Sequence record: MH816966
Length of the DNA stretch: 64,000 nt
Origin: Escherichia phage FEC19
Reading direction: 5' to 3' (one strand)
The position numbers and the translations under genes were made by a program. How positions within the stretch are numbered: the stretch's first letter is position 1; each line of letters opens with the position of its first letter. Positions 1 through 25,025 of the stretch are shown piece after piece. A model generated the notes under the pieces. The model saw nothing but the letters and a program-made list of their open reading frames with translations, had not been told where the DNA came from and did not search any database.

Positions 1-27
1 GCGAACGCGCCTGCAAGTGAAGAGTTT

Positions 28-369
28 TCATTTGACCTTCTCCAATTGGAATCTTGCTTCTGGAAAGCCTGCGACAAACATGTCACGGCCCTCGACATCA
101 CGCTTCACGAACCAACGCATTCCGCTGACTACCGTGAAGACAATTTGCCTTCCATCAATAATAAGTCCTTTTGCCTCATAAAGCAAATAAGTCTGACCGA
201 CTTTGAAGCTTAACATATCCTTGCTTGTGCTGGTGCACTTGAGCCGCCACTGGGTGAGATTTGATTCGCTTGCTTCGATGTCAACAACCTTACCGCGCAG
301 CGACGATGTGCGCTGAAGCTCTTGCATTTGCTCGTCGAACGTGAGTTCACGGCCTTCTTGCTCTTCCAT
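28..369 (-). CDS. hypothetical early protein (113 aa)
   Basis: Intact ORF in a co-directional tightly packed minus-strand array; no recognisable motif. Confidence 0.45.
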   Translation of the reverse strand: MEEQEGRELTFDEQMQELQRTSSLRGKVVDIEASESNLTQWRLKCTSTSKDMLSFKVGQTYLLYEAKGLIIDGRQIVFTVVSGMRWFVKRDVEGRDMFVAGFPEARFQLEKVK

Positions 370-869
370 TATTCCTCCACGACGCGATAAGCAATGATGT
401 CATAAACGCTTCCGTTGTGCTGCCACAGCCATCCTTCTGAATTGGATGAATAAGAAGACTTCTCTTCATTCCTCCACATCAACATGACCTTCTTACCAGG
501 CACCGGATTCTTGCCGCCAGCCCATTCAATCCAACCTTCATGAGATTCTTCGGGCTTCTTCAAGTGCTCATGCTTCTCACCGATGTGGGCGACAGGTTGA
601 CGGCTTCCGTAATAGAATGCCAACGCAACGTCGTAGGATGGATGGGTGTTGGATAAGCAAATGTCATCACACCAAAGCTCCATGGTGCGCGACTTAAGCG
701 TCATCATATTAGTATACCACTCGATGGTGTAGTGGTCGTTAAGGTTGCCGACAATATAGAAGTTGCGGCAAAAGTGCGCAGCGTCATCCGACTTCTCGCG
801 GCTATAGCTTCTGATTGCGCCTGCCTTTACAGCCATTTCCAATACTGCTTCGAGTTGTTCGATTTTCAT
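369..869 (-). CDS. hypothetical protein (166 aa)
   Basis: ORF abutting its neighbours (start overlaps next stop); His/Trp-rich, no confident family assignment. Confidence 0.45.
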   Translation of the reverse strand: MKIEQLEAVLEMAVKAGAIRSYSREKSDDAAHFCRNFYIVGNLNDHYTIEWYTNMMTLKSRTMELWCDDICLSNTHPSYDVALAFYYGSRQPVAHIGEKHEHLKKPEESHEGWIEWAGGKNPVPGKKVMLMWRNEEKSSYSSNSEGWLWQHNGSVYDIIAYRVVEE

Positions 870-1111
870 TTCTTTACTCCTAGTTCAATTTGATAGCCGA
901 TTGACAATTCATTTTCGCCGATGTTGAATGCATCAACGGGCTGCGACATCACCGCCTTTAAATATACCTTCTTGCGCCGCTTTGCCTTGTACAAACAACG
1001 GTCGCCGCTGCGGTTGTAGATGTTAAGCCAGGTGCGCTTACTGATCTTATAAGGCACATGCGGCTTGATGAATAATAAACGGGCCTTAAGATTGGATGTC
1101 ATAGTATTCAC
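866..1111 (-). CDS. hypothetical basic protein (81 aa)
   Basis: ORF overlapping the upstream gene by 4 nt (coupled); Lys/Arg-rich. Confidence 0.4.
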   Translation of the reverse strand: MNTMTSNLKARLLFIKPHVPYKISKRTWLNIYNRSGDRCLYKAKRRKKVYLKAVMSQPVDAFNIGENELSIGYQIELGVKK

Positions 1112-1410
1112 TTCCCTCCAAACGTTGCAACACGGATGTCGCGACGCGAAAAAGTCAGAACAGTGTCAAGGCTGCCAGCACAGGTTATGAATATATCGTC
1201 TGCAACAAGGTCATACCCGCCGACGCAAAGAATAAATGTGTCATCGCTATTCTTTAATAGCATGATTGCTGCAACACCGTCCTTTTTATTCTTAAAGAAG
1301 AATACTGGCTCACCGCCTTCTTGCGTCTCCTTGAACTCTTTAATTGCACCACAGTTCACGGCTTCTTGCAAAGCATTCAAAACCTTTTTCTTCATTGCTT
1401 CGTTACTCAT
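1108..1410 (-). CDS. hypothetical protein (100 aa)
   Basis: Start refined to ATG at 1410 (MSNEAMKKK) preceded by AAGGAG; the longer ORF-track start lacks an RBS. Confidence 0.5.
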   Translation of the reverse strand: MSNEAMKKKVLNALQEAVNCGAIKEFKETQEGGEPVFFFKNKKDGVAAIMLLKNSDDTFILCVGGYDLVADDIFITCAGSLDTVLTFSRRDIRVATFGGK

Positions 1411-1438
1411 AATCAATTCTCCTTTGCTTGATGAACTA

Positions 1439-1466
1439 AGTATAATACAGGCAAATAAAAAGGCAA
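1439..1466 (-). promoter_or_regulatory. sigma70-like promoter for 1108-1410
   Basis: Minus sense TTGCCT-16-TATACT; -35 lies inside the upstream terminator stem. Confidence 0.4.
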
Positions 1467-1485
1467 GCATTTAGCTCACCTTTTT
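1457..1485 (-). terminator. rho-independent terminator (copy 1 of a duplicated cassette)
   Basis: Minus-strand RNA 5'-AAAAA GGUGAGC UAAAU GCUUGCC UUUUU-3'; the stem uses G-U wobbles that pair only in the minus-sense transcript. Confidence 0.5.
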
Positions 1486-1488
1486 GAA

Positions 1489-1749
1489 TTAAATATTCTT
1501 CGCCTCTTCGTGGAGGCCGACCGACCTTAGTTTTCGTCGCAAGTAAGCTTTCTTTTCACTCTCCCGCCCGGCTGGAGTCACGCGCCAGCGTAATGTGTTC
1601 TCCAGATTCTTGCGTCGGTTGTGCTTGTCGAGTAGCTCTACCAGTGCCTTTGCGTCGTCGAGTGTTAATGCCACGGGCCGCGACCCATTAACGGCTTGTC
1701 GAAGCTTCCGCGCGGCAACGGCTAACTTAGTCATCGGACCTTTGTTCAC
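1489..1749 (-). CDS. hypothetical basic protein (86 aa)
   Basis: ORF followed directly by a hairpin terminator; Arg/Lys-rich, possible nucleic-acid binder. Confidence 0.45.
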   Translation of the reverse strand: MNKGPMTKLAVAARKLRQAVNGSRPVALTLDDAKALVELLDKHNRRKNLENTLRWRVTPAGRESEKKAYLRRKLRSVGLHEEAKNI

Positions 1750-2129
1750 GGCAACTCCTTATTCATAGGCGTGATAGACAACACCTTTACGTCTGTGATG
1801 TCACGGTTGTATTCGCGCTTGATTTGTAGAATCTGGGATTGGATGCGCGCGATAAAGTGCCACGTGATGCCTTCCTTAACGTTAATCCAGGCCGCAAGCT
1901 GAATTGAATCGATTTCACTTCTCAATGTCATCGGTCTGTAAGCAGCACTTTGTGCACCATAAGCAGGCTGTGTATCGTAAGCTGAATACTTGAATGACAC
2001 CAAGAACATTCTTTCTTCAAGCTGACTCTCGCTATTAGGATTCTTATCACAATTAGCCATGTGTCGCAAGAACTCTTCATGCGGAAGATGCATCACATCG
2101 TGACAATACGGACAACGTTTCATTCTCAT
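1746..2129 (-). CDS. small zinc-finger-like protein, paralog A
   Basis: N-terminus KRCPYCHDVMHLPHEEFLRHMANCDKNPNS parallels the neighbouring gene (C-P-x-C ... H ... C ... NPxNS); start chosen to avoid overlap with the upstream stop. Confidence 0.5.
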   Translation of the reverse strand: MRMKRCPYCHDVMHLPHEEFLRHMANCDKNPNSESQLEERMFLVSFKYSAYDTQPAYGAQSAAYRPMTLRSEIDSIQLAAWINVKEGITWHFIARIQSQILQIKREYNRDITDVKVLSITPMNKELP

Positions 2130-2130
2130 T

Positions 2131-2415
2131 TTACACCTCATGCAAGAAAGACAAAGATTTGATGCAGACTATTTCTTTTCCAGATACTTCCTTTATTGTA
2201 TCCAGCAGGCTTTCATACGCCTTTTTGGTGATCACCATTTCTTTCGTGGTAACGATTCCTGTTGCGCCTGAGCCGTCGTCTGCTTCCGCGTGATAATGAT
2301 AATAGTAACGCGTCGAATTTTCAGGATTAGCTTCACAAACGTTAACGTGATGTAAATATTCTTCAACAGGAAGTCGCATAGTTAACAAGCAATGTGGGCA
2401 GCGTTGCACCTTCAT
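2131..2415 (-). CDS. small zinc-finger-like protein, paralog B
   Basis: N-terminus QRCPHCLLTMRLPVEEYLHHVNVCEANPENS; tandem paralog of 1746-2129. Confidence 0.5.
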   Translation of the reverse strand: MKVQRCPHCLLTMRLPVEEYLHHVNVCEANPENSTRYYYHYHAEADDGSGATGIVTTKEMVITKKAYESLLDTIKEVSGKEIVCIKSLSFLHEV

Positions 2416-2648
2416 TTTGCATACTCCATAGCATATTGCTGCAGCTTAAACGCAGCCTTTTGTAATTGTTTGTGACGTTCAAATAACGTCTCACGCTTTT
2501 CAGCAGGGCAATCGGCGCGAAGCATTGTTATGGCAACGCTTGACATAGCATTCAATAAAAACTGAAAACGAGACACCATTCTCAGCTCATTACGCTTGTT
2601 GAAAGACAGCTTACCCAGCGCGGCATTCATAATTGCACCTCGACACAC
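2412..2648 (-). CDS. hypothetical protein (78 aa)
   Basis: ORF overlapping the upstream gene by 4 nt. Confidence 0.4.
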   Translation of the reverse strand: MCRGAIMNAALGKLSFNKRNELRMVSRFQFLLNAMSSVAITMLRADCPAEKRETLFERHKQLQKAAFKLQQYAMEYAK

Positions 2649-2944
2649 GATTCACTAGCCTTGAATCCCCAGCCTTCCAGACCGACTTCGCCGCAGTAAC
2701 GCGCCATTGCACGCTCATCCAAGAACCAACCGTGATATTGCTCTATGTACTTTGGTTTTTCTGAATAACAGTGAATGACTCCGTCGTCATCAATGGCCAC
2801 GTAACGCGTGCCAGGCGCGACTGGTACAACTACGTTTGGGTGGACGATTGGCCAAGGCTTGATGTGTACGGCTGTGTCTAACTTAACGTTTGGCACCCTT
2901 GAAAGGTCTTTGTAAGCGCCCTCGTCCATTCCTAAGTAAATCAT
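2627..2944 (-). CDS. hypothetical protein (105 aa)
   Basis: ATG at 2944 preceded by GAGGTGA; downstream of the duplicated promoter/terminator cassette. Confidence 0.5.
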   Translation of the reverse strand: MIYLGMDEGAYKDLSRVPNVKLDTAVHIKPWPIVHPNVVVPVAPGTRYVAIDDDGVIHCYSEKPKYIEQYHGWFLDERAMARYCGEVGLEGWGFKASESCVEVQL

Positions 2945-2976
2945 AATTCACCTCGCTTGTTAGTCTTGATGAAAAG

Positions 2977-3005
2977 AGTATAAGTATTGATAAAAGAAAA
3001 GGCAA
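2977..3005 (-). promoter_or_regulatory. sigma70-like promoter for 2627-2944
   Basis: Minus sense TTGCCT-17-TATACT; duplicate of the 1439-1466 arrangement. Confidence 0.4.
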
Positions 3006-3024
3006 GCATTTAGCTCACCTTTTT
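2996..3024 (-). terminator. rho-independent terminator (copy 2 of the duplicated cassette)
   Basis: Same 30-bp sequence AAAAGGCAAGCATTTAGCTCACCTTTTTGA as at 1459-1488. Confidence 0.5.
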
Positions 3025-3029
3025 GATAT

Positions 3030-3362
3030 TCATTTTACATAGTGGAGTAGGTCAATCTCTATCTCGTGCCTTGTCCTTGTTATCTTTGTATCACCCGTCC
3101 TGTGGGAGACTTGATGGAAGAAAGAGTCTTTGTGAGCGCATCGTTCAAACATCACGCTGGCAAATCTGCAGCCGCATATTGCATCAAGCTTTGCTCCGTT
3201 AGACAAAAGGTTGAATGTCAATACAGTGTTATCCATCCTTGCATTTTGCTTGATGCAGGACTTTAAGAAGGCGTAAGAATCGGCAAATGATTTGTGCCTT
3301 TTACAAATATCTTTAACCTTTTCACGCTCATGCGCGGCGAGTATCTGATCACGTGTCATCAC
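3030..3362 (-). CDS. hypothetical protein (110 aa)
   Basis: ORF in operon context, followed by the terminator at about 2996-3024. Confidence 0.45.
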   Translation of the reverse strand: MMTRDQILAAHEREKVKDICKRHKSFADSYAFLKSCIKQNARMDNTVLTFNLLSNGAKLDAICGCRFASVMFERCAHKDSFFHQVSHRTGDTKITRTRHEIEIDLLHYVK

Positions 3363-3598
3363 TGCACCTCTGTTATTCCGGTAATGCGAACGATTACGGT
3401 GTCATCTAAATTGAACTGCTGCCGCGCGACGCGCTTGATGTCGTCCTTAAGGTCCGCAATCAACTCCCTTGTTAACACTGTACGCTCTGAGACGTCATAT
3501 TGAACGTCAAAGGTATACTCGCCATAAAATACCGCGCCATTGGGAAGTTGTACGACATAGAATGCCATGTACATTGCATTGATATAATCTTCCATCAT
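3359..3598 (-). CDS. hypothetical protein (79 aa)
   Basis: Start refined to the internal ATG forming an ATGA overlap with the upstream stop. Confidence 0.4.
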   Translation of the reverse strand: MMEDYINAMYMAFYVVQLPNGAVFYGEYTFDVQYDVSERTVLTRELIADLKDDIKRVARQQFNLDDTVIVRITGITEVQ

Positions 3599-3942
3599 AC
3601 ATTCTCCACGGGTCGACGAATGAGTTTGCGTAATCCTTCGGGCCAGACCTTCTTGATGACGGCCTTTGCTGGGCTGGATGAAAGCTTCTTCAGCTTCAAT
3701 AGGACACATCCTTCATCATCGTTCGGTTGCACCTGGATAACGACTCGCGCTTGTCGGTCGATGACCATGACATCCCCAATGCGAATGTCTTTTACCAACA
3801 CGCCCATCTCCTTCGTGCCGGATACGCCATTGATGTGATCAAAACCTTTTCGCAGCGGTTTCATTATTTCTTCTCCTGCCATTTCTCTGACACGCTTCTT
3901 AATCTCTGCGCCAAACAACACTTCGTCTTTAACATGAGCCAT
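3595..3942 (-). CDS. hypothetical protein (115 aa)
   Basis: Start refined to MAHVKD to remove overlap with the upstream gene. Confidence 0.4.
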   Translation of the reverse strand: MAHVKDEVLFGAEIKKRVREMAGEEIMKPLRKGFDHINGVSGTKEMGVLVKDIRIGDVMVIDRQARVVIQVQPNDDEGCVLLKLKKLSSSPAKAVIKKVWPEGLRKLIRRPVENV

Positions 3943-4408
3943 GGTCGAGTACCTTATAGAATTTAGTGGTGAATCGCTCATCGCCATAGTAGCGATACTT
4001 GCCGCCGCCAGTGTTATCAAACCTTACCCATTGAATTAAAGTCTGGTCAGCGTCGTGCGACACGTAAATCACCCGGCCATTAACAGGAATTGCGCCCTCT
4101 TCCGCGTCCTTGCTTATGATTGAATCGCCGTTCTTGATGTCAAATATGTCAATCGGCTTAAGGCGCGGCTTTTTATCAACATAAGTTTGAATAGGAACTC
4201 TTACGCAACGTGATTGATGATGGACAAGTCTTTCAACATGCCTTTTGGTTGGCGGTAAAATCTCGAATGACTCAACGCCTGCAAACTCGCTGTCGATAAA
4301 TTTATTTATTTTCATCCTTAATGGAATTGGGACGTTACATTGACTTGTTGCTGCTAAAATAATTGCTGCTTCTGTTTTACTTAACATTAAAGGGCGATGA
4401 ATGATCAT
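3929..4408 (-). CDS. hypothetical protein (159 aa)
   Basis: Intact ORF in the co-directional early array; no recognisable motif. Confidence 0.45.
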   Translation of the reverse strand: MIIHRPLMLSKTEAAIILAATSQCNVPIPLRMKINKFIDSEFAGVESFEILPPTKRHVERLVHHQSRCVRVPIQTYVDKKPRLKPIDIFDIKNGDSIISKDAEEGAIPVNGRVIYVSHDADQTLIQWVRFDNTGGGKYRYYGDERFTTKFYKVLDHGSC

Positions 4409-4410
4409 AA

Positions 4411-4566
4411 TTAACCTCTGATTTGTGACACAAAACGTTTATAATGTTCTTTGGCTAAGACGCGTGCGCGCTCTTTCGTATGGCCGCTGGCTTCAAGTAC
4501 GCGACGAAGCTGCTTGATTGCGTCTGCTTTACTAACCTTGTTATCGTTAAACTGAAATTTATTCAT
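4411..4566 (-). CDS. small basic protein (51 aa)
   Basis: Not in the ORF track; exactly fills the gap between neighbours, with its ATG overlapping the upstream TGA (ATGA). Confidence 0.3.
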   Translation of the reverse strand: MNKFQFNDNKVSKADAIKQLRRVLEASGHTKERARVLAKEHYKRFVSQIRG

Positions 4567-4784
4567 GCTTCACAAGCCGCCTTAATTTGACGTGGAGTAA
4601 CGATGACTACTTCACCAACCAGTGACTTGTCATCTTCTTTTACCGTATCGATTCGAACGCGATAGTGATTGCGACCGCGTGAATCAGTAAGGTATTGATC
4701 CAGCTCAAGGATGGTGCCTGCGCGCATATTCTGTCCTGACATCCAACGGATACGGTCGCCAGCCTTAAGAGTTTTCTTTCTCAT
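4563..4784 (-). CDS. hypothetical protein (73 aa)
   Basis: Start refined to MRKKTLKAGD; the longer ORF-track N-terminus overlaps the upstream gene. Confidence 0.4.
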   Translation of the reverse strand: MRKKTLKAGDRIRWMSGQNMRAGTILELDQYLTDSRGRNHYRVRIDTVKEDDKSLVGEVVIVTPRQIKAACEA

Positions 4785-4791
4785 CTTCAAC

Positions 4792-5070
4792 TCACTTATA
4801 GTATTTAAACATAGCCGCGCAAAAATCCTGCATGGCATTCTTAATTTGCTTCTTGAACAACGGGTCATGCATCGTTTCAACATTCGTCTTAATCCGAACG
4901 TGACCGATAACATCAAACGCAGTTGCTGGCATCGGCTCATAGATTTCATGATCGTTCAAGATTATATCTAGTCTTGACTCAGAAATCACGGGATAATTCT
5001 TTCCAGCAGTAAACTGGTCATCAATCGATAACGTGCACTTGACAAAGAATACTTTGTATGTAGTAATCAT
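4792..5070 (-). CDS. hypothetical protein (92 aa)
   Basis: Intact ORF in the early array. Confidence 0.45.
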   Translation of the reverse strand: MITTYKVFFVKCTLSIDDQFTAGKNYPVISESRLDIILNDHEIYEPMPATAFDVIGHVRIKTNVETMHDPLFKKQIKNAMQDFCAAMFKYYK

Positions 5071-5276
5071 AGTGAGTCCTTCGGGCCGCAGTAGCGCCCG
5101 TCCAGGTAGCGGTCGTATTGGATTAAAGCGAATGTTTTCAACGAAAGGTTACGGCGCTTAAACAGGTGACCAGTTGATGGATTCTGCTCGTGCGCCGTTG
5201 GATAAAGGCGTGTCAGGTAGTGGATGAGGACTTGTAAAGCTCTACGTTGCTTTGTTATTCTCCCTTGTGTATTCAT
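5067..5276 (-). CDS. hypothetical basic protein (69 aa)
   Basis: ORF with 4-nt overlap downstream; weak RBS. Confidence 0.35.
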   Translation of the reverse strand: MNTQGRITKQRRALQVLIHYLTRLYPTAHEQNPSTGHLFKRRNLSLKTFALIQYDRYLDGRYCGPKDSL

Positions 5277-5466
5277 GGTTGAATCTACCCTCTGTCAATA
5301 TCCGGTCGTGGATTACTATACCAGTACAGCGCAGGCGGTTGGCATTGCTTCGCGCCTTTGCTGCTTGATGAGGATTGAACAAGCCAAACAAACTAGCCTT
5401 AAAGGCAAACTGGTAATATTTGATTAAAGTACTAAGTGCTAACTCAATCCTGTCTAAATTAATCAT
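5242..5466 (-). CDS. hypothetical protein (74 aa)
   Basis: ATG preceded by GAGGTGA; overlaps the next ORF by 35 nt, so one of the two may be spurious. Confidence 0.3.
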   Translation of the reverse strand: MINLDRIELALSTLIKYYQFAFKASLFGLFNPHQAAKARSNANRLRCTGIVIHDRILTEGRFNHEYTRENNKAT

Positions 5467-5505
5467 AATATCACCTCGTCAGAAAAGCAAATATTTTGAT
5501 GATAA

Positions 5506-6153
5506 TTATCCTGTGGCCTGCATATTGCGTACATACTTCTGCTCTAATGAATAGATGAAGTCGGCGACCGTCAATCCTTTTGTGTGCCACTCATACATTG
5601 TGTAGCCTGTATTCAGGAAATAGCCGCGCACCTTGTCCATTGCTTCAGCTTCCTCCATGGAAGCCATCAGCGCGGCGACGTTATCATAAGAAGGCACAAA
5701 TCCCTTCTTGCGTAGCGCATTGCGCAAATCTTTAGTTCTGAATCCAATCTTGCACAGGTCATCACGGCCCGTTGAAGATGCAACCTTCGGCAGTGCAAGG
5801 AACTCTTTGAGGAACATCGAGATGTTCAGGTCGCCTGCATCATCAAGCTTCTGGAGTCGGTTGCGACCGCGACCCTTGAATTCACTTGCACGAGGGTGAG
5901 CGCCAAAACAATGCGCCCCTTCCAATTTAGGGTCGATGATCATCAAATCTTTGCCTACGCGCAATTCAACGTAGTAAAGGTATGTCTCATCGACAAGCTT
6001 CGTGCGTTTACAGGTGATGGAGTCCTTATCGTACCCAAAACCACGCAACACGGTTGAAATCATCCGGTTCATTTCTTCTCCATGAACGTCACTCTCTTTG
6101 TTCAGTTCACCGAGATGTTGAAAGAATTTAGCGATGTTGATTGCTTTATTCAT
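5506..6153 (-). CDS. hypothetical protein (215 aa)
   Basis: ORF immediately downstream of and coupled to the primase-helicase gene. Confidence 0.5.
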   Translation of the reverse strand: MNKAINIAKFFQHLGELNKESDVHGEEMNRMISTVLRGFGYDKDSITCKRTKLVDETYLYYVELRVGKDLMIIDPKLEGAHCFGAHPRASEFKGRGRNRLQKLDDAGDLNISMFLKEFLALPKVASSTGRDDLCKIGFRTKDLRNALRKKGFVPSYDNVAALMASMEEAEAMDKVRGYFLNTGYTMYEWHTKGLTVADFIYSLEQKYVRNMQATG

Positions 6154-7823
6154 CAGAATTCATCCTTATCTCTTCCTAAAGAACGTTTGCGTTCAATAAC
6201 CTTCTTCAAGAATTCAATATCTTCAGGGTCAGACTCGTCGCGGATAAGATACGCTAAGATAGTCATCAAATCAGAAATGTATTCCCCTGCTTCATTCTTA
6301 ATCAGCGGCGTAAAGTAACCACGCTGGTTGCGATAGGTTGCAGGCTCAAATCCAAGCTTCGACATGTGCGGCGCAAGGGTACGTGAGAAAGGCGACTTGC
6401 CGCACTTAGCTCTGAATCCCATAGCGATTGCACCACTGGTGATGTGCCAGCGTCCGCTGTGATGTCGGTCATAAGGCGCGGTGATGACGACTTCAACAAG
6501 GTCGTTGTCGACCATCTCGTCACGGATAACGCCGCGAGCGCGTTCCATTTCGTTCTTGCTGAACTCAGTAAGCATACGAGATGTCTCACCGACAAAGGCG
6601 TTATAACCTGCTTCGCCGTGCTTCTCCATCCACGCAGCGCACTCAGCCATCAGCTGCCAAACGTCTTCTTTCAAAGTTGAAAGGTCAGCTTGGAAGTCTT
6701 TAGACCAGTTCGGTTGCCCGTCCTTGTCGGCGAGTTGGCCAACAAAGATAGGATACACACGACGGTTGCCTGTATCGTCACGTTGCATGCCTGCGTATTC
6801 GTTGCCGTCCATGATAGCAATCCACTGGCGTGGTTTAACCTGCGTGTCTTCAAATTTGAAGTCCAGGTCATCTTCCGTCTTAGTCAGGAATGCTTTCATG
6901 TTTTCGATGTCGGCCTTTTTAAAGCCTGTCATCTCACCAACGTTCGCGATAATTGAGCGACCCGTAATAGCTCGCAAGAACGGGTTGAAGTTCTGCGCGG
7001 CCAAGTTCAACGGAATCGGTGTTGCGTGGCGGTCGTTCATAATAGCTTCGCAAAGTAGCTTACTAAAATAACTCTTCCCTGCGTTCTGGCCGCCGATGAG
7101 CGCAATGGAGATTGGCGCTTGACAGCCAGGGTTGGTCAGGCGGTTATAGAGCGATAGCCAAAAATACACACCGATTTGTCGGTTTAACTCTGTATCGAAC
7201 GGTCGGAATAGCTCGATAAGGTATTTCTCGATGCGCGCAGTGCCGTCCCATTCAGGAAGCTTCTTGTAGAAGAAGTCCATCAGGTCGTCGCGCTGATAAC
7301 GCATGGCCCATTCCTTATAGGATTGAGCGACCTGACGTGAGTTTGGGTTGGACAGACCTGCTGCGTCGACAGCGGCAACTATCTCTGTGACTTCCAATGT
7401 ACGGTCGGTGAATGTTTCGCCGCGATGGTCGACTAAGCGTCCACGAAAAGTATCTTTGTGAGGGAATGGGACAATGCCGCTTCCCTTATCAAACAACGCG
7501 TCGAAAACCGCATAACGGTTCATGTCACTCGTCCGGTCCGCCTGAAGAACAAAATCATCTTTCGTCGGTTTGTAGTGAGGGAACTTGATTACCTGAAGTG
7601 AGGCGAGCAAACGTGCTCTTTCAACCAAGTCTTCTTCGCCGTAGCACTCCATGCGCTCTGCATCTTTCTCAACAGCCTTATGCTGGAGGCTGATTTTAGC
7701 TCTGGTGCCTTGCTGCTCTGCCGCTTGCATCTCTTCTGACACACCAGCGTCTTGAATTTCGTCAAAGATTGCACCAAATTCATCACCTGTATCCTCTGGA
7801 AGATTGTCATGTTCAATTGACAT
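6153..7823 (-). CDS. DNA primase/helicase-like P-loop NTPase (VirE/D5-like)
   Basis: 556 aa with Walker A IALIGGQNAGKSYFSKLL; AGGAGG RBS before the ATG. Confidence 0.65.
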   Translation of the reverse strand: MSIEHDNLPEDTGDEFGAIFDEIQDAGVSEEMQAAEQQGTRAKISLQHKAVEKDAERMECYGEEDLVERARLLASLQVIKFPHYKPTKDDFVLQADRTSDMNRYAVFDALFDKGSGIVPFPHKDTFRGRLVDHRGETFTDRTLEVTEIVAAVDAAGLSNPNSRQVAQSYKEWAMRYQRDDLMDFFYKKLPEWDGTARIEKYLIELFRPFDTELNRQIGVYFWLSLYNRLTNPGCQAPISIALIGGQNAGKSYFSKLLCEAIMNDRHATPIPLNLAAQNFNPFLRAITGRSIIANVGEMTGFKKADIENMKAFLTKTEDDLDFKFEDTQVKPRQWIAIMDGNEYAGMQRDDTGNRRVYPIFVGQLADKDGQPNWSKDFQADLSTLKEDVWQLMAECAAWMEKHGEAGYNAFVGETSRMLTEFSKNEMERARGVIRDEMVDNDLVEVVITAPYDRHHSGRWHITSGAIAMGFRAKCGKSPFSRTLAPHMSKLGFEPATYRNQRGYFTPLIKNEAGEYISDLMTILAYLIRDESDPEDIEFLKKVIERKRSLGRDKDEF

Positions 7824-7889
7824 TTAATCCTCCTGATACGGCTTTGTTATATTGTTGCATGGATATATCCTTTCAGGGTGCGGTAAATA

Positions 7890-7910
7890 AACGCCAGAAA
7901 TCTGGCGTTG
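7890..7910 (-). terminator. hairpin terminator downstream of 7960-8250
   Basis: Perfect inverted repeat ACGCCAG-AAAT-CTGGCGT with U-rich sequence following on the minus transcript. Confidence 0.5.
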
Positions 7911-7959
7911 TATATTAATATAGTAAAACTCAGTTTAAAGCAATATAACTGGTGAACTA

Positions 7960-8250
7960 TCAGCAAGGAAATTGGTCAGCGTATGCCTTTCTCAATTTGT
8001 TTACTGACTGAACAGAATGAAGGTATTGGCAATCGGTGAAGATGCGGCGCAAACAATCCATAGAAGACAGGTCATCGTTAGTAACCACCAGAATCTCTTC
8101 CGAAGGGCAACCAGCTTCTTTGGCAATCTCATTAAGATTTGAGCCATTAATTTCTTCAACACGTTTCACCTCATCGATACCGTAAACATCAACGGCAACT
8201 TCGATGTCGTCATCGCTGATATTCTCACCATAAAGAATTACAATATTCAT
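7960..8250 (-). CDS. hypothetical acidic protein (96 aa)
   Basis: ORF followed by a hairpin terminator. Confidence 0.45.
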   Translation of the reverse strand: MNIVILYGENISDDDIEVAVDVYGIDEVKRVEEINGSNLNEIAKEAGCPSEEILVVTNDDLSSMDCLRRIFTDCQYLHSVQSVNKLRKAYADQFPC

Positions 8251-8369
8251 TTACTCACCCCTGCCAAATAATGTGCCATATCCAATACATATAATAGCCC
8301 CAGGATGATAACAAGGGAAATGATTAATGTGTATTTCTTTACGGCTTTCATATGTATCTATACCTAAAT

Positions 8370-8633
8370 TTACTGTTGAGGATCACCGATGGAGTCTGTC
8401 GCATCCCATTCAACGCGTGCTGTACGTTCTGCTGGTGGACAACCTTCTCCGGCGTAAAGCTCCACCACACCTTCGTGAGAGCAGCACTGGCACTCTACAA
8501 GGTCGCCGTCCTCCCAGGCACCTTCTTCTGCATTGCGATGCTGCCGCACCTTGATCACATCGCTTGCACAGTTAGGACAAGTCGAAAGACTGCTTGTGAC
8601 GTTCCAAACGAACTCGTTGCGGAAAGCACCCAT
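8370..8633 (-). CDS. small zinc-ribbon protein
   Basis: CPNC ... CQCC cysteine pairs; start refined to the internal ATG abutting the upstream stop. Confidence 0.4.
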   Translation of the reverse strand: MGAFRNEFVWNVTSSLSTCPNCASDVIKVRQHRNAEEGAWEDGDLVECQCCSHEGVVELYAGEGCPPAERTARVEWDATDSIGDPQQ

Positions 8634-8634
8634 G

Positions 8635-8925
8635 CTACACCTCTTGATCTCGCTGTTGTTGAATCGCGGCTGCAGCTTCTTCAAAATTGACGGGCTCAAC
8701 GGTAAATGTCGCGCTGACAGTGAAGTTGTTAATCGTCAGCAAAGTATTGAAACGCTCTGCATTCAGATTCATCGCCACGTGCGTCGACACATTAAGGATT
8801 GCACCAACGACTTCTTCCACCGCATAGCCTTTAAACAGAGGAAGAATTTCATTGACAAGCTTCAGCTCGTTCTCCACGCGAAGTTTTTGTGCTTCTTCAG
8901 TGGTCATCATTTTTGGTTCGTTCAT
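8635..8925 (-). CDS. hypothetical protein (96 aa)
   Basis: Intact ORF in operon context. Confidence 0.45.
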   Translation of the reverse strand: MNEPKMMTTEEAQKLRVENELKLVNEILPLFKGYAVEEVVGAILNVSTHVAMNLNAERFNTLLTINNFTVSATFTVEPVNFEEAAAAIQQQRDQEV

Positions 8926-8930
8926 TTTTA

Positions 8931-9074
8931 TTCCTTAACAAATTCAGAGTAGTGTTTGGCCGCAGCCGATTGGTGGTGAGCCATGACACCTTCAAGGGTG
9001 GGAAGCTCTACGTGCTTAGGTTCTAACGAATTTAACAGACCTTCAAGCTCGATGTTCAATTCTTCGCTTTGCAT
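8931..9074 (-). CDS. small hypothetical protein (47 aa)
   Basis: Not in the ORF track; ATG preceded by GAGGTGA and the ORF fills the gap to the next gene. Confidence 0.3.
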
Positions 9075-9132
9075 AAATCACCTCTGCTTCAGTTCATAAA
9101 ATGATTATAGTTGCTAGAAAAATAAAAGCAAA

Positions 9133-10215
9133 CTATTTTATGCCACCTGCGCGACGATTTATCATATCAAGTTGATTCTCAATATAAGGCATGACTACTG
9201 CTTCAACAAAAGCGGTCCAGCCTTTCTTGCCTTCACCTTTCCGGTGACAGTCGTGAGCGCAACCGAAAACGAATTCATGTTCAGCGCCAGGGATTGGGCC
9301 TCGAAAATAAGCGCCGTATGGGTCGCCGTTGGTGTGCTCTTCACCCCAAGGACAGATGATGCGGCATTTACCTGACATGTTTTCAACCACATCGCCATCG
9401 GACCCTTCGCCCATCTTATTGCGCGCAAGGATTTGCTGGGCTATTTTATACCAAACAGCATCATATTTGTATTCGTCAACGTCGATTTGAATTTCACGCT
9501 TTTGCGGCATAACGACGTGGAAACCGAAGGCTTGGCAAATCTCTTCGATTGTGTAGCGCAAGGAATAGTCTGCATGGACAAGTCGGCAGCGGAACGGGTC
9601 GCCGTTCTCATCGACATATTTATAGGGGCCGTCGTGAGTCACACGCTTGTTGTTGATGCACCCAGGAACACGGCCCACGCGCGTCACGTCTTTAATCGTG
9701 TTGTCGCCGCCCTTCTTGAGTACCATGTTTACGAAAGACCCAAGGAATGCTTTGAACTGAATAAGATGGTCAATCGGTTCTTTAAAGAAGTACCACAGCT
9801 GATGGTTGTTCGGCGAAGTCTCGACGATGACGGTTGGTTTTAGGCGCTCGAAAAAGAATTCCAAATCTAAATCGCCCTTTGACCCTTTACCGTGCCCAAT
9901 GTCGTCGACCATCATCGCCATGCCATGACCAAAGGCCGATTCCGTGCGCCAGTATCGCATCTCGCCTGTCTTTGGGTTGGGAGACTTACGCATTGAACTT
10001 ATGCAGGCGTAACCGTTCTGATGTTGCATCAGCGGCTTGCCAAGCTTCCAAGGCTTAGGCCAGAAGCTGCTGTTAATCTTTTTGCCGCGCTCGTCAGTCT
10101 GCACTGTTGCTTCAGGCGCAAACACGGTCATGACGCGTTCATCTTCTGGAATGCCTCTTTGGAGTTCCGTCAAAAACTCTTCGATTATTTTTGCTTCTTC
10201 TCTTAAACTAGCCAT
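9133..10215 (-). CDS. putative primase-polymerase (prim-pol/AEP-like) with C-terminal zinc-binding region
   Basis: VDDIGHG (DxD-like), SPNNHQLWYFF and RVPGCINNK segments resemble prim-pol motifs; C-terminal CPWGEEH ... GCAHDCH cysteine/histidine cluster. Confidence 0.5.
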   Translation of the reverse strand: MASLREEAKIIEEFLTELQRGIPEDERVMTVFAPEATVQTDERGKKINSSFWPKPWKLGKPLMQHQNGYACISSMRKSPNPKTGEMRYWRTESAFGHGMAMMVDDIGHGKGSKGDLDLEFFFERLKPTVIVETSPNNHQLWYFFKEPIDHLIQFKAFLGSFVNMVLKKGGDNTIKDVTRVGRVPGCINNKRVTHDGPYKYVDENGDPFRCRLVHADYSLRYTIEEICQAFGFHVVMPQKREIQIDVDEYKYDAVWYKIAQQILARNKMGEGSDGDVVENMSGKCRIICPWGEEHTNGDPYGAYFRGPIPGAEHEFVFGCAHDCHRKGEGKKGWTAFVEAVVMPYIENQLDMINRRAGGIK

Positions 10216-10244
10216 CTTTCTTTCCTTCGGTGATCAATACCTGC

Positions 10245-10272
10245 AGTATAATATTGAGTGATACAAAGTCAA
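10245..10272 (-). promoter_or_regulatory. sigma70-like promoter for the prim-pol gene
   Basis: Minus sense TTGACT-16-TATACT in the divergent intergenic region. Confidence 0.45.
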
Positions 10273-10375
10273 CAATATTTACCATTTAGTTCACAATTTC
10301 GATTTACTTTGCTTTATACTATATCTGCAATTATACTATCAGAAAATATTTCCGCACTAACAAAGGTCGCCTGAA

Positions 10376-10702
10376 ATGAACGAAAAAGATACGAAGCAAC
10401 GCGAACGTGCAACACACGTCGGCATCGTTGAGTCCTTCCTTAATACAAGACTGAATTCAAGTCTTACAATTATGCGATTCCTGGGTCAACCAGACAGAAT
10501 CAAATTCATCTTTGCCGCAAATCCGGTATCGCTTTACATCCCTGTTGAATCCATGGCGTACCTGGTGCGCGACGAGCAAGGGTGGAAGATACCAAACACG
10601 ACTGTTTTCTTCAGCCACGTTGACGGTGAGATGTTTGAACGAAAAGAAGATTGCCATTTTATTCCAGTATATCTGGACCTTGAAAGCGTAGTGGAGTTAT
10701 AA
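10376..10702 (+). CDS. hypothetical protein (108 aa)
   Basis: First gene of the plus-strand block; stop overlaps the helicase ATG (TAATG). Confidence 0.45.
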   Translation: MNEKDTKQRERATHVGIVESFLNTRLNSSLTIMRFLGQPDRIKFIFAANPVSLYIPVESMAYLVRDEQGWKIPNTTVFFSHVDGEMFERKEDCHFIPVYLDLESVVEL

Positions 10703-12045: not shown

Positions 12046-12885
12046 ATGGCCGAAGCAATCAAAGTATTATCTAAAGAAGAAAAACAAGCAGCTGCAGCAG
12101 AACGTCGTCGCGTGGCTGAAGAAAAACGCCTGGCTAAAAAGAAAGAAGCCGAAGAAAAACGCCAGAAGCGTGAGCAGGAAAAACAAGCCAAGCGTGAAGA
12201 AGCTGCGCTGAAACGCAAGCAGGCTGCTGATGAGAAGGCTCAGAAGCGTGCTGAAGAAGCAGCGAAGAAAGCCAAAGAGCGTGCAGAAAAGGCTGCTGCT
12301 AAGAAAGCAGAGCGTGAAGCCGCTAAAGCAGCAAAAGAAATCGAAAAGGCAAAGGCTAAAGAAGAAGCCAAGCGCCTGAAAGCTGAACAAGCTGCTGCTA
12401 AGAAAGCAGAGCGTGATCAAGCCCGTGCTGCAGCGAAGGCCGAAAAAGAGAAGGCCAAAGAAGAAGCTAAAGCGAAACGCAAGGCAGAGCGTGAAGCTGC
12501 TAAGATTGCGGCTAAAGAAGCTGCAGAAAAGCAGAAAGAACAGCGTAAGAAAGAAGCTGAAGAACGTCGCAAAGCCATCGCAGAACGTAAGGCTGCTAAA
12601 AAGGCAAACGGTCAGCGTCGTGCAAAAGCAACCCACTTCATCTACACTGGCAATGGCCTGAGCCAGCCGCAAGAGCATTCCACCCGTGGACGCGTTCTGG
12701 CGGCGATCAAAGAAGGCGAAGTTGGCGTGGCGCAGTCTATCGATGAGCTGGGCGAAAAAGTTAAAGATCAACTGTTTGGCGCTTCCGTTCGCTCCTACCT
12801 GAGCAAGCTGGAAGAGATGGGCCACATCGAGTTTGTCGATGTTGAATCCAACGAAGATGCCGAAGACGGTGATCAAGCGGAATAA
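12046..12885 (+). CDS. Lys/Glu/Ala-rich low-complexity protein with globular C-terminal domain
   Basis: About 200 aa of KAKEEAK/AEEKR repeats then an ordinary-composition C-terminal domain; ATG at 12046 with AAGGA RBS preferred over the GTG at 12040. Confidence 0.6.
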   Translation: MAEAIKVLSKEEKQAAAAERRRVAEEKRLAKKKEAEEKRQKREQEKQAKREEAALKRKQAADEKAQKRAEEAAKKAKERAEKAAAKKAEREAAKAAKEIEKAKAKEEAKRLKAEQAAAKKAERDQARAAAKAEKEKAKEEAKAKRKAEREAAKIAAKEAAEKQKEQRKKEAEERRKAIAERKAAKKANGQRRAKATHFIYTGNGLSQPQEHSTRGRVLAAIKEGEVGVAQSIDELGEKVKDQLFGASVRSYLSKLEEMGHIEFVDVESNEDAEDGDQAE

Positions 12886-14014: not shown

Positions 14015-14043
14015 TTGCTTTCTGCTTCAATGGGCGTATACTT
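14015..14043 (+). promoter_or_regulatory. sigma70-like promoter with -10 inside a palindrome loop
   Basis: TTTGCT-17-TATACT; the -10 lies between 11-bp arms CTGCTTCAATG and CATTGAAGCAG. Confidence 0.45.
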
Positions 14044-14078
14044 TAATCATTGAAGCAGAACTCATAGAGGAAACGAAA

Positions 14079-16238: not shown

Positions 16239-16268
16239 TTTACTTGTGCGTTTCGATGAGTTATATTT
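16239..16268 (+). promoter_or_regulatory. sigma70-like promoter with -10 inside a palindrome loop
   Basis: TTTACT-18-TATATT; the -10 lies between 12-bp arms CGTTTCGATGAG and CTCATCGAAACG. Confidence 0.45.
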
Positions 16269-16303
16269 ATCTCATCGAAACGAAGTCCAAAAAGGATAAA
16301 TAA

Positions 16304-17749: not shown

Positions 17750-17775
17750 GGCCGTCCTAATGGGCGGCCTTTTTG
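17750..17775 (+). terminator. rho-independent terminator
   Basis: GGCCGTCC-TAAT-GGGCGGCC followed by TTTTTG. Confidence 0.65.
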
Positions 17776-17787
17776 TAGGAGGCCAAT

Positions 17788-18330
17788 GTGTTATTTCTCC
17801 CTTATGACTTCGAAACAACCGGATTAACCGTGCACCCGAAAGCGCCGCTTGGAATGCAGCCGCGCCCTATTGAATTTGCAGGCCTGTTGACGGATGGAAA
17901 AGAGATTCTTGAAACTTTCGAGTTCATAATTAATCCTGAAATTGTGATTGAAGAAATCATCACAAAGATTACCGGATTAACCAATGAAGACCTTGAGTGC
18001 AATCCACCCTTTATTCATTTCGTTCCGCAACTAAAAGACATCTTCAAGAAGACTGATGCCACTATCGCGCACAACCATGCGTTCGATAAGAACATCCTTG
18101 ATTATGCATTGCAGCGCGAAGGTCTTACACTTGGTGATGTTAATTTTCCAGAAATAAACATTTGTACAGTCGAGCAAACCTTGCCTATTTTTGGCCGAAG
18201 AGTTAAGCTTCAAGAGCTGTATGAATTATATTTCGGAAAATATGAACAGAAGCACCGTGCATTAGACGACGTAATATTACTGCACAAAGTCTGCCAACAA
18301 ATTGGCGTATATGACATCTGGAGTAAATAA
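17788..18330 (+). CDS. DnaQ-like 3'-5' proofreading exonuclease (DEDDh)
   Basis: Exo I LPYDFETTGL, Exo II HNHAFDKNIL, Exo III HRALDDV; GTG start after GGAGG. Confidence 0.85.
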   Translation: MLFLPYDFETTGLTVHPKAPLGMQPRPIEFAGLLTDGKEILETFEFIINPEIVIEEIITKITGLTNEDLECNPPFIHFVPQLKDIFKKTDATIAHNHAFDKNILDYALQREGLTLGDVNFPEINICTVEQTLPIFGRRVKLQELYELYFGKYEQKHRALDDVILLHKVCQQIGVYDIWSK

Positions 18331-23169: not shown

Positions 23170-23198
23170 TTGACTTGTCACGGAAGATGAGTCATAAT
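23170..23198 (+). promoter_or_regulatory. sigma70-like promoter
   Basis: TTGACT-17-CATAAT followed by the TCATCGAAACGAA leader motif also seen at 16271-16284. Confidence 0.5.
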
Positions 23199-23230
23199 TA
23201 CTTCATCGAAACGAAATAGAGGAATACAAA

Positions 23231-24987: not shown

Positions 24988-25013
24988 GGCTGCCGATTGG
25001 CGGCCTTTTATTT
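24988..25013 (+). terminator. rho-independent terminator
   Basis: GGCTGCC-GATT-GGCGGCC followed by TTTTATTT. Confidence 0.6.
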
Positions 25014-25025
25014 ATCTGGTGCATC

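What the first reader, a model, noticed from the sequence alone, without database searches (positions are those of the whole stretch)
1439..3024. Duplicated terminator-plus-promoter cassette punctuating the early operon
An exact 30-bp element (AAAAGGCAAGCATTTAGCTCACCTTTTTGA) occurs at 1459-1488 and 2996-3025, each time immediately after a stop codon and upstream of a TTGCCT-16/17-TATACT promoter and the next gene. The hairpin pairs properly only in the minus-sense RNA, matching the operon direction. This implies modular insertion of early gene units.
Basis: seen in the sequence. Interest (0 to 1): 0.4.

Follow-up and report, generated by a model that had tools for sequence, protein, structure and literature searches.

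The report
Duplicated terminator-promoter cassette in a coliphage
Two identical short DNA elements in an E. coli phage (genus Wifcevirus) each look like a transcription stop signal fused to a restart signal; the type is already known from other phages, and relatives show that foreign genes have been inserted at these elements.

Summary
Nothing else in the window matches within 3 mismatches.

On the minus (coding) strand each copy sits 1-3 nt after a stop codon. It folds into an 11-12 bp hairpin with two G-U pairs (about -14.7 kcal/mol), followed by a U-tract. The -35-like hexamer TTGCCT lies inside the 3' arm. TATACT follows 16 or 17 nt later, then a second shared block TTCATCAAG, a Shine-Dalgarno site and ATG.

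The window is a Wifcevirus. All 27 Wifcevirus GenBank records found hold exactly two copies. In 20 genomes the stems, TATACT and TTCATCAAG are essentially invariant, while flanking genes differ by 13-19%. The WFC and WFH records already annotate both hairpins as putative terminators.

The best reading is a leaky intrinsic terminator overlapping a sigma-70-type promoter, closest in kind to the PeSL cassettes of T4-like phages.

The "modular insertion" idea is only partly right. The five-gene unit between the copies is fixed across the genus. However, some relatives carry foreign genes inserted at the cassettes and flanked by half-cassette direct repeats.

No transcript data exist. This is a new member of a known kind, of modest interest.

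The parts
2997..3026 (-). Upstream copy (U) of the exact 30-nt repeat. The hairpin proper is 3023-2997: 5' arm AAAAGGTGAGC, loop TAAAT, 3' arm GCTTGCCTTTT.
   Evidence: Invariant in 20 genomes.
3027..3035 (-). Conserved left edge of U (AAATGAATA), which includes the TGA stop (3032-3030) of the upstream gene 3030-3362.
   Evidence: AAATGAATATC is invariant even where a different gene precedes it. It is part of the 21-22 nt direct repeat that flanks an inserted gene in WFC, Bas100 and SP13 and, by its U-flank sequence and gene map, F13.
2990..3000 (-). U-tract of U (TTTTCTTTTAT), the expected RNA release zone.
3000..3005 (-). -35-like hexamer TTGCCT of the putative promoter P_U, inside the 3' arm of the hairpin.
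2977..2982 (-). -10-like hexamer TATACT of P_U, 17 nt after the -35.
   Evidence: Invariant in 20 genomes although the spacer varies.
2965..2973 (-). Shared block TTCATCAAG, 3 nt after the -10; the probable transcription start region of P_U.
   Evidence: Invariant in the 20 genomes compared; one metagenome contig, L152, has a single substitution.
2942..2954 (-). Shine-Dalgarno GAGGTG plus the ATG (2944-2942) of the first gene of the inter-cassette unit.
1489..2944 (-). Five-gene unit between the cassettes (105, 72, 94, 127 and 81 aa). All are ORFans; the 94-aa and 127-aa proteins share a CPxC...H..C N-terminus.
1458..1487 (-). Downstream copy (D) of the exact 30-nt repeat. The hairpin is 1484-1458, or 12 bp if 1485 and 1457 are counted. 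The TAA stop of the upstream gene is at 1491-1489.
   Evidence: Relatives carry three loop variants and one uncompensated stem variant.
1453..1461 (-). U-tract of D (TTTTTATTT).
1461..1466 (-). -35-like hexamer TTGCCT of the putative promoter P_D, inside the 3' arm of the hairpin.
1439..1444 (-). -10-like hexamer TATACT of P_D, 16 nt after the -35.
   Evidence: Invariant in 20 genomes.
1427..1435 (-). Shared block TTCATCAAG of D.
1408..1424 (-). Shine-Dalgarno AAGGAG (1424-1419) plus the ATG (1410-1408) of the first gene after D. This slot holds a different gene in different relatives.
10245..10272 (-). Best sigma-70-like site of the block (TTGACT-16-TATACT), in the divergent intergenic region. 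It is the presumed main promoter of the minus-strand block that U and D punctuate.
   Evidence: The block layout is taken from the WFC annotation.

Best explanation
Each copy is a compact regulatory cassette that stops and restarts transcription.

Proposed mechanism (inferred):
1. Host RNA polymerase transcribes the minus-strand block of small genes, which starts near 10272.
2. At each cassette the RNA forms an 11-12 bp hairpin with only four G-C pairs and two G-U pairs, followed by a U-tract. Part of the transcripts end there.
3. Termination is probably leaky. The stem is the weakest of the phage's predicted terminators. [quoted passage not shown]
4. The same DNA carries a sigma-70-type promoter. 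The -35 TTGCCT is inside the 3' arm, the U-tract forms the start of the spacer, and the -10 TATACT follows 16 or 17 nt later. Transcription would start in the conserved TTCATCAAG block, with a 20-25 nt leader holding a strong ribosome-binding site.
5. Transcription is therefore re-set for the next unit.

The two copies come from one duplication that predates the genus. Overlapping constraints (pairing, -35, U-tract) have frozen the sequence.

Secondary role: the 5' arm AAGGTGAG plus the loop ATG resembles a ribosome-binding site with a start codon. In relatives, foreign genes have been inserted using this and the neighbouring bases as short homology.

Shown: the anatomy, the copy number, the conservation pattern and the insertion footprints. 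Inferred: termination, initiation, leakiness and timing.
For: Anatomy:
- The repeat is exact and has two copies only.
- The hairpin is stable only in the coding-sense RNA.
- The hairpin plus U-tract passes the terminator scan.
- The depositors of WFC and WFH annotated both hairpins independently as putative terminators, at -10.10, the weakest of those listed. Their paper cites the ARNold terminator predictor.

Context:
- Genes of the block overlap by 1-4 nt, and U and D are two of the few gaps.
- The -10 TATACT is the same hexamer as in the block's best promoter candidate at 10250-10245. It recurs in other terminator-then-promoter junctions at about 60416-60460 and 27203-27280.

Conservation in 20 genomes:
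- Nucleotide diversity (pi) is 0 for the U stem and loop, both -10 hexamers and both TTCATCAAG blocks.
- It is 0.009 for the D stem and 0.02-0.09 for the spacers and the D loop.
- It is 0.13-0.19 for the flanking coding sequence.

Distribution: exactly two places in each of the 27 Wifcevirus records found.

Plausibility: the distant relative Pbunavirus 14-1 has 26 mapped sigma-70-like promoters and 14 terminators (PMC10914365).

Insertion footprints:
- A 64-aa gene in WFC, Bas100, SP13 and F13 sits between gene 1 and U. In WFC, Bas100 and SP13 it is flanked by AAATGAATATCAAAAAGGTGA on both sides.
- A three-gene insert in RCIP0319 is flanked by GGTGAG(G/C)TA(A/T)AT.
- The inserted genes have homologues in unrelated phages.
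Against: - There are no transcript 5' or 3' end data for any Wifcevirus.
- A 9-of-12 promoter match is not rarer than chance (21 found against 18.4 expected per 12 kb).
- The stem is weak: the core is -8.7 kcal/mol, with 4 G-C pairs.
- There is no covariation. The only stem substitution, G>T in SP13 and F13, is uncompensated and lowers stability to -8.0 kcal/mol, yet it persists.
- Other terminator-like hairpins inside operons of this phage sit directly before a gene with no promoter (17.76 kb and 25.0 kb). Read-through alone can therefore suffice, and the promoter halves may not be needed.
Confidence: 0.6

Rival explanations
1. Terminator, attenuator or 3'-end-stabilising hairpin only. The promoter-like hexamers are incidental, and the downstream genes are expressed by read-through from upstream promoters.
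For: - Promoter-like matches at 9 of 12 are as common as in shuffled sequence.
- The -35 is poor (TTGCCT, 4 of 6) and is dictated by the stem.
- Other internal terminators of this phage have no promoter behind them (17.76 kb and 25.0 kb).
Against: - TATACT and the following TTCATCAAG are invariant at both sites in 20 genomes, while the spacer before them and the 3 nt between them vary.
- The two paralogous cassettes kept exactly these blocks while the spacer diverged completely.
- The spacing is 16 or 17 nt, and the same -10 hexamer occurs in the block's best promoter.
Confidence: 0.2
2. PeSL-type recombination linkers. On this view the main significance of the cassettes is to supply short homology for shuffling gene modules between co-infecting phages. 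Small circles or unequal crossovers would be the intermediates, and the regulatory function would come along with them.
For: - All four cassette sides are polymorphic for gene content in at least one of 20 genomes.
- Inserted genes are flanked by direct repeats made of half a cassette, as a single crossover of a circle would leave.
- The inserted genes are foreign: 74% amino-acid identity to phage ST20, and 61% to a tgt/DpdA-like gene of Klebsiella and Escherichia siphoviruses.
- The PeSL precedent is documented in PMC2839356.
Against: - There are only two full copies per genome, and never a loss or gain of the unit between them in the 27 records found.
- The inserted genes bring no cassette of their own.
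- About half of the cassette-less gene junctions are polymorphic too, with 5-6 nt homologies. The contrast of 4 of 4 against about 6 of 12 is not significant.
- Variants of the D loop are not copied to U, so there is no ongoing exchange between the copies.
Confidence: 0.3
3. A sequence-specific recognition site. The inverted repeat overlapping the -35 would be an operator for a phage regulator, or the RNA hairpin a target for a phage antiterminator or processing factor. This would explain why two sites share one exact sequence.
For: - The loop is identical between U and D in most genomes although the adjacent spacers are unrelated.
- Both G-U pairs are retained in all 40 copies examined, although single changes would give stronger pairs (-17.6 kcal/mol).
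- The site overlaps the -35.
Against: - The loop of D evolves about as fast as the spacers, with three variants.
- The stem constraint is explained by pairing plus the -35.
- Only about 0.5 G-U-improving changes would be expected by chance, by my rough estimate from the spacer substitution density.
- As DNA the palindrome has two mismatches.
- There is no candidate binding protein: the neighbouring ORFs have no informative Pfam or PHROG hit.
- There is no Rfam match.
Confidence: 0.08
4. A functionally neutral relic of a recent local duplication.
For: The 30 nt are identical, and the flanking genes are unrelated.
Against: - Both copies are present in the whole genus.
- They are far more conserved than the neighbouring coding sequence (pi 0-0.009 against 0.13-0.19).
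- The spacer between the conserved blocks has diverged fully, so the duplication is old.
Confidence: 0.03

Closest known systems
PeSLs (promoter-early stem-loops) of T4-like phages RB49, phi1, PST and nt-1 (Arbiol et al. 2010, PMC2839356; Comeau et al. 2014, PMC4122927)
   Same: - Both are intergenic composites in the order stop codon, stem-loop terminator/attenuator, sigma-70-like promoter, Shine-Dalgarno site, ATG.
- One PeSL subclass has the stem-loop overlapping the -35, as here.
- Both lie in regions of small ORFan genes that vary between close relatives.
- In both, inserted ORFs are flanked by repeated cassette sequence.
   Different: - There are only two full identical copies here, plus at least two dissimilar composites, against dozens in T4-like phages.
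- The phage is unrelated: a Wifcevirus, distantly related to Pbunavirus.
- The stem is AAAAGGTGAGC/GCTTGCCTTTT, not the GGGG...CCCC type.
- The unit between the two copies is fixed in the genus.
- Mini-circles and promoter or terminator activity have not been tested.
Ordinary Rho-independent terminators annotated in the phage WFC and WFH GenBank records (MK373777, MK373776; Korf et al. 2019, PMC6563267)
   Same: These are the same two hairpins at the homologous positions, each annotated 'putative transcriptional terminator, -10.10'.
   Different: The records and the paper do not mention that the two are identical, that a promoter overlaps them, or that gene content changes at them.
Conserved intrinsic-terminator motif family of phage phiKZ (Putzeys et al. 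2024, PMC10914365)
   Same: One terminator hairpin sequence is reused at several sites of one phage genome.
   Different: phiKZ has 61 copies, mapped by transcript 3' ends, and they are not fused to a promoter. Here there are two copies and no mapping.
Morons of lambdoid phages (a gene with its own promoter and terminator, inserted between two genes), as discussed in PMC2839356
   Same: Both are transcriptionally autonomous units bounded by a promoter and a terminator within a phage operon. In both, foreign genes are added at the boundaries.
   Different: The unit between U and D is present in every relative, so it is not an accessory insertion. The genes actually inserted in relatives lack their own promoter and terminator.

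Membership tests
Rho-independent (intrinsic) terminator | A stable stem-loop in the transcribed-sense RNA | tested here: met
   An 11-12 bp stem with a 5-nt loop, -14.7 and -14.2 kcal/mol, z = -2.8 and -3.6. The antisense RNA is interrupted by a 2x2 loop. The G+C-rich core is only 7 bp, at -8.7 kcal/mol.
Rho-independent (intrinsic) terminator | A U-rich tract immediately 3' of the stem | tested here: met
   UUUUCUUUUAU at U and UUUUUAUUU at D.
Rho-independent (intrinsic) terminator | Transcript 3' ends at the U-tract, or measured termination | not testable with these tools
   I found no Wifcevirus transcriptome.
Rho-independent (intrinsic) terminator | Base pairing maintained by compensatory changes | tested here: inconclusive
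   The stems hardly vary in 40 copies. The single stem change (G>T in SP13 and F13) is uncompensated.
Sigma-70-type promoter | -35 and -10 hexamers with 16-18 nt spacing | tested here: met
   TTGCCT-17-TATACT and TTGCCT-16-TATACT, 9 of 12 matches. Matches of this quality are as frequent in shuffled sequence.
Sigma-70-type promoter | Position and orientation before a gene with a ribosome-binding site, and conservation of the hexamers | tested here: met
   The -10 ends 28-32 nt before the ATG. TATACT is invariant in 20 genomes at both sites while neighbouring bases vary.
Sigma-70-type promoter | A mapped transcription start or reporter activity | not testable with these tools
   No data exist.
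PeSL (T4-like phages) | An intergenic composite of a sigma-70-like promoter and a terminator stem-loop between a stop codon and the next SD-ATG | tested here: met
   Definition taken from PMC2839356.
PeSL (T4-like phages) | A multi-copy family spread through hyperplastic regions | tested here: not met
   There are exactly two full copies in the window and in each Wifcevirus record found. At least two further terminator-promoter junctions have unrelated hairpins.
PeSL (T4-like phages) | Indels between close relatives located at the cassettes, with cassette sequence at the junctions | tested here: met
   Half-cassette direct repeats flank a 64-aa gene (WFC, Bas100, SP13) and a three-gene insert (RCIP0319). 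The enrichment over other junctions is not significant.
PeSL (T4-like phages) | Recombination between cassettes that gives mini-circles | not testable with these tools
   This needs inverse PCR or deep sequencing. No U-D deletion or amplification variant appears in the 27 records found.
PeSL (T4-like phages) | The host genome is a T4-like myovirus | tested here: not met
   The window is a Wifcevirus, distantly related to Pbunavirus.
Moron | A unit with its own promoter and terminator that is present in some relatives and absent in others | tested here: not met
   Genes 5, 0 and 7 of the unit lie between U and D in all 20 mapped genomes, with gene 6 missing only in TH32 and gene 5 uncalled in EC150.

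The most novel reading that the evidence does not exclude
The cassette may act as an integrase-free gene-capture site. The 5' arm of the terminator hairpin (AAGGTGAG) together with the loop ATG mimics a ribosome-binding site plus start codon. Incoming foreign genes would then recombine there through their own SD-ATG microhomology. They would be translated at once and would sit inside an insulated transcription unit. This would extend PeSL-like modular shuffling to a phage lineage unrelated to T4 and give it a concrete sequence logic.
Probability: 0.2. Interest if true: 0.55.

Novelty: new member of a known kind. Interest (0 to 1): 0.3.

Why it matters
If the two halves work as predicted, the cassettes define the transcription units of the ORFan-rich block of Wifcevirus. 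These phages are under study for control of E. coli O157 and are reported to replicate unusually fast. The cassettes also give phage engineers two conserved, apparently tolerant insertion points that already carry a promoter, a terminator and a ribosome-binding site.

The half-cassette footprints add a second, unrelated phage lineage to the evidence that regulatory cassettes serve as junctions for gene shuffling.

None of this changes current understanding. Composite terminator-promoter elements are known, and the hairpins themselves are already annotated in public records.

Tried and rejected
- **Further copies.** There are none in the window within 3 mismatches. No phage record outside Wifcevirus holds a copy; the other hits are weak chance matches. 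Complete E. coli genomes hold none.
- **Metagenome scan of the stem with a free loop**. It returned Wifcevirus-like contigs, plus unrelated contigs that carry the same 10-bp stem with other loops. I read those as independent generic terminators or chance matches.
- **IMG/VR scan for TATACTNNNTTCATCAAG**. It gave mostly single chance hits and was uninformative.
- **Rfam.** No family matched at E <= 1 over 1-10500.
- **Concerted evolution between the copies.** Rejected, because D loop and stem variants are not mirrored in U of the same genome.
- **Deletion or amplification between the copies.** Not seen in any record.
- **A small ORF starting at the loop ATG.** In the window it runs to the next gene's start at U and is in frame with the next gene at D. 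Rejected as functional: 1-nt length differences and an early TGA in relatives change its end and its frame (sequences). Several GenBank records nevertheless annotate a CDS that starts in the D hairpin (Bas101, AV128, kaset) or runs through it (Ro157lw).
- **Homologous cassettes in the related Serratia phage MyoSmar.** There is no repeated terminator-promoter element in the equivalent block.
- **Function of the neighbouring proteins.** Pfam and PHROGs gave nothing informative.
- **My first search for the shared -10/+1 block.** It used the wrong gap (NNNN instead of NNN) and missed both sites. This was corrected.
Full report
**What the window is**

The first 6 kb match 27 phage records at 88-94% identity. 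All are Escherichia or Shigella myoviruses of the genus Wifcevirus, and the best match is vB_EcoM-Ro157lw.

In the annotated relative WFC, the homologous region is a 12.5-kb block of about 33 small genes, nearly all 'hypothetical'. All lie on one strand. The block starts at a divergent intergenic region next to the replication genes, contains a primase-like gene, and ends near the 3.7-kb terminal repeat (PMC6563267). In the window this block is on the minus strand, from about 10272 down to position 1. Genes in it mostly overlap by 1-4 nt, and only a handful of intergenic gaps exist.

**The observation**

The exact 30-mer is at 1458-1487 and 2997-3026. There is no other match with up to 3 mismatches, and 0 of 100 shuffles gave one.

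Read on the minus strand, each copy begins 1 nt (D, the downstream copy at 1487) or 3 nt (U, the upstream copy at 3026) after a stop codon. The RNA folds as AAAAGGUGAGC-UAAAU-GCUUGCCUUUU. That is 11-12 pairs, two of them G-U, at -14.7 and -14.2 kcal/mol (z = -2.8 and -3.6). It is followed by UUUUUAUUU (D) or UUUUCUUUUAU (U). The complementary RNA has C-A mismatches at the wobble positions and folds markedly worse (-9.2 to -11.2). The strand claim is therefore correct.

The hexamers TTGCCT and TATACT are spaced 16 nt (D) and 17 nt (U) apart.
- The -35 hexamer lies inside the 3' arm of the hairpin, and both wobble pairs involve its T and G.
- After a 13-14 nt spacer that is unrelated between the copies, the similarity resumes as TATACT-NNN-TTCATCAAG.

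The full cassette is therefore about 75 nt: stop codon, hairpin with -35, U-tract and spacer, -10, a conserved start region, then Shine-Dalgarno and ATG.

**Distribution**

A 38-nt query found exactly two places in each of the 27 Wifcevirus records found. Elsewhere in 50,697 phage records it found only weak chance-level matches. There was no match in complete E. coli genomes and no Rfam family.

The WFC and WFH GenBank records annotate both hairpins as 'putative transcriptional terminator, -10.10', the weakest of those they list. The accompanying paper cites the ARNold terminator predictor but does not discuss the hairpins. I found no paper on Wifcevirus transcription.

**Conservation**

I extracted both cassettes from 20 genomes.

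| Segment | Nucleotide diversity (pi) |
|---|---|
| U stem and loop | 0 |
| Both TATACT boxes | 0 |
| Both TTCATCAAG blocks | 0 |
| D stem | 0.009 |
| Spacers and D loop | 0.02-0.09 |
| Remaining leader | about 0.09-0.10 |
| Flanking coding sequence | 0.13-0.19 |

The cassettes are thus islands of constraint, and the constraint falls on the parts a terminator-promoter model needs.

The D copy shows three loop variants (A>G in Bas99, Bas100 and TH32; A>T in Bas101 and RCIP0319). It also shows one uncompensated stem change (G>T in SP13 and F13, which lowers stability to -8.0 kcal/mol). None of these is mirrored in U of the same genome, so the two copies are not being homogenised.

Stems almost never vary, so there is no covariation evidence for or against the structure. 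The argument for an RNA-level structure rests on the G-U asymmetry and the U-tract.

**Why the sequence is frozen**

The 3' arm holds the -35 hexamer. Pairing ties the 5' arm to it, and the A-tract and U-tract are tied to termination. Only the loop is free, and the loop is where D varies.

I estimated roughly 0.5 expected G-U-improving substitutions from the spacer substitution density. The retention of both wobble pairs is therefore not significant. No sequence-specific factor needs to be invoked, although one is not excluded.

**Context in this phage**

- The best promoter candidate of the block, TTGACT-16-TATACT at 10272-10245, uses the same -10 hexamer.
- At about 60416-60460 (+) a different hairpin (GGCGCU-GAAA-AGCGCC) is followed directly by TTTACT-16-TATACT and a leader. 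That leader shares TAACAAGnGAGGTGnATTnTG with U.
- At about 27203-27280 (+) a terminator is followed by TTTACT-16-TATACT.
- Other strong hairpin-plus-U-tract sites (17.76 kb and 25.0 kb) sit directly before the next gene with no promoter. Internal terminators in this phage must therefore be leaky.

The distant relative Pbunavirus 14-1 has 26 sigma-70-like promoters and 14 terminators mapped by ONT-cappable-seq (PMC10914365). Dense use of host-type signals is therefore established in the wider lineage.

**Most likely mechanism**

Each cassette is a leaky intrinsic terminator fused to a host-type promoter. It trims incoming transcription and restarts it for the next unit: five genes after U, and a variable set after D.

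Two features suggest leakiness. The first is the weak stem. The second is the stop codon lying only 1-3 nt from the element. From general knowledge of ribosome footprints, not tested here, a terminating ribosome should occlude the 5' arm. All functional steps are inferred; there are no transcript data.

**The 'modular insertion' claim**

Gene maps of 20 genomes show a fixed backbone...8-1-[U]-5-6-0-7-[D]-...-2-3-4... The unit between the cassettes is never absent. The spacing varies between about 1252 and 2700 nt, for three reasons:
- One of two paralogous zinc-finger-like genes is present or absent.
- A gene is inserted after P_U in EC150 and CWP003.
- Three genes are inserted before D in RCIP0319.

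All four cassette sides are polymorphic in at least one genome. The slot right after D is the most variable, holding 0-4 genes from a pool of about seven. About half of the cassette-less junctions are polymorphic as well, so enrichment at the cassettes is not statistically established.

The junction sequences are informative:
- In WFC, Bas100, SP13 and F13 a 64-aa gene sits between the usual upstream gene and U. In WFC, Bas100 and SP13 it is flanked on both sides by AAATGAATATCAAAAAGGTGA, the left edge of U plus most of the 5' arm. The left copy serves as the inserted gene's ribosome-binding site. F13 shares the same right junction and gene map; its left junction was not printed.
- In RCIP0319 the three-gene insert is flanked by GGTGAGGTAAAT (left, followed directly by an ATG) and GGTGAGCTATAT (right, in the full hairpin).
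- The 64-aa protein has homologues in phage ST20 (74%) and a Yersinia phage.
- The 275-aa protein of the RCIP0319 insert is 61% identical to a gene of Klebsiella and Escherichia siphoviruses. The homologous gene is annotated as queuine tRNA-ribosyltransferase in several other phages.
- Insertions after the promoters use the SD-ATG region as 12-18 nt homology.

Direct repeats of a half-cassette are what a single crossover of a small circle, or an unequal exchange, would leave. This is the model proposed for PeSLs (PMC2839356). It is wrong for the five-gene unit it was attached to.

**Comparison with known systems**

The closest known kind is the PeSL of T4-like phages: a composite of a sigma-70-like promoter and a terminator stem-loop in ORFan-rich plastic regions. 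It includes a subclass with the stem-loop over the -35, and it has a demonstrated role in indels. The present cassettes work like PeSLs on paper. They fail two membership criteria: they are not a multi-copy family, and the phage is not T4-like. The decisive criteria (measured activity, mini-circles) cannot be tested here.

They are not morons, because the bounded unit is universal in the genus. A repeated terminator sequence within one phage genome has a precedent in phiKZ.

**Verdict**

This is a real, non-random and strongly conserved pair of composite regulatory cassettes. The terminator half is already annotated in public records. The promoter overlap, the duplication and the insertion footprints are not discussed in anything I found. 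It is a new member of a known kind and of modest interest.

Noticed in passing
window 16255-16284, 23186-23215, 54500-54529 (+ strand); also 14020-14070 (+): A second family of repeated promoter-like elements. Each has an AT-rich stretch, then TTTACT or TTGACT, 17 nt, then TATATT or CATAAT, with an inverted repeat (GATGAG..CTCATC) straddling the -10. CGAAACGAA follows, about 25 nt before + strand genes. At about 14037 a TTGCTT-16-TATACT site has an 11-bp inverted repeat around the -10. These may be operators or another class of promoter-plus-stem-loop composite.
   Followed up: partly
window 60416-60490 (+) and 27203-27290 (+): Two further terminator-then-promoter junctions with unrelated hairpins and the same -10 hexamer TATACT. 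The 60.4-kb one has its -35 (TTTACT) abutting the stem, and its leader shares TAACAAGnGAGGTGnATTnTG with cassette U.
   Followed up: partly
window 2131-2415 and 1746-2129 (- strand): Two adjacent genes of the inter-cassette unit begin with a paralogous motif, (R/K)CPxC...M.LP.EE.L.H...C, that looks like a zinc finger. Many relatives have only one such gene, with breakpoints at about 2396 and 2135 inside the paralogous N-termini. That pattern suggests deletion or duplication by recombination between the paralogues.
   Followed up: partly
L014 (phage RCIP0319) 2067-3495: A three-gene insertion at the D hairpin. It includes a 275-aa protein 61% identical to a gene of Klebsiella and Escherichia siphoviruses; the homologue is annotated as queuine tRNA-ribosyltransferase (tgt/DpdA-like) in several other phages. 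This may be a DNA-modification, anti-restriction acquisition.
   Followed up: partly
L009 3521-3832, L019 3521-3883, L020 3521-3877, L006 3255-3554 (GenBank annotations of relatives): Three records (Bas101, AV128, kaset) start a CDS at the ATG in the D hairpin loop, and one (Ro157lw) runs a CDS through the D hairpin. The extension is not conserved in frame across relatives. A strong Shine-Dalgarno site precedes the internal ATG, so these are probably mis-annotations.
   Followed up: partly
window 17755-17790 (+) and 24995-25030 (+): Strong hairpin-plus-U-tract terminators (-17.4 and -15.9 kcal/mol) lie only a few nt before the next gene's ribosome-binding site, with no promoter between. The downstream replication genes must therefore depend on read-through.
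   Followed up: no
window 62410-62497, 62604-62680, 49747-49866, 12283-12614: Other direct-repeat families. There are tandem 43-45 nt and 25 nt repeats near the window end, close to the terminal-repeat region, GATACGGAT-type repeats near 49.8 kb, and a coding repeat (AAKKAERE-like) at 12.3-12.6 kb.
   Followed up: no
U cassette A-tract, window 3024-3020, in relatives: The A-run 5' of the U hairpin varies in length: 4 in Bas100, RCIP0319 and ECO71P1, 5 in most genomes, and 6 in Bas99. The rest of the cassette is invariant.
   Followed up: no
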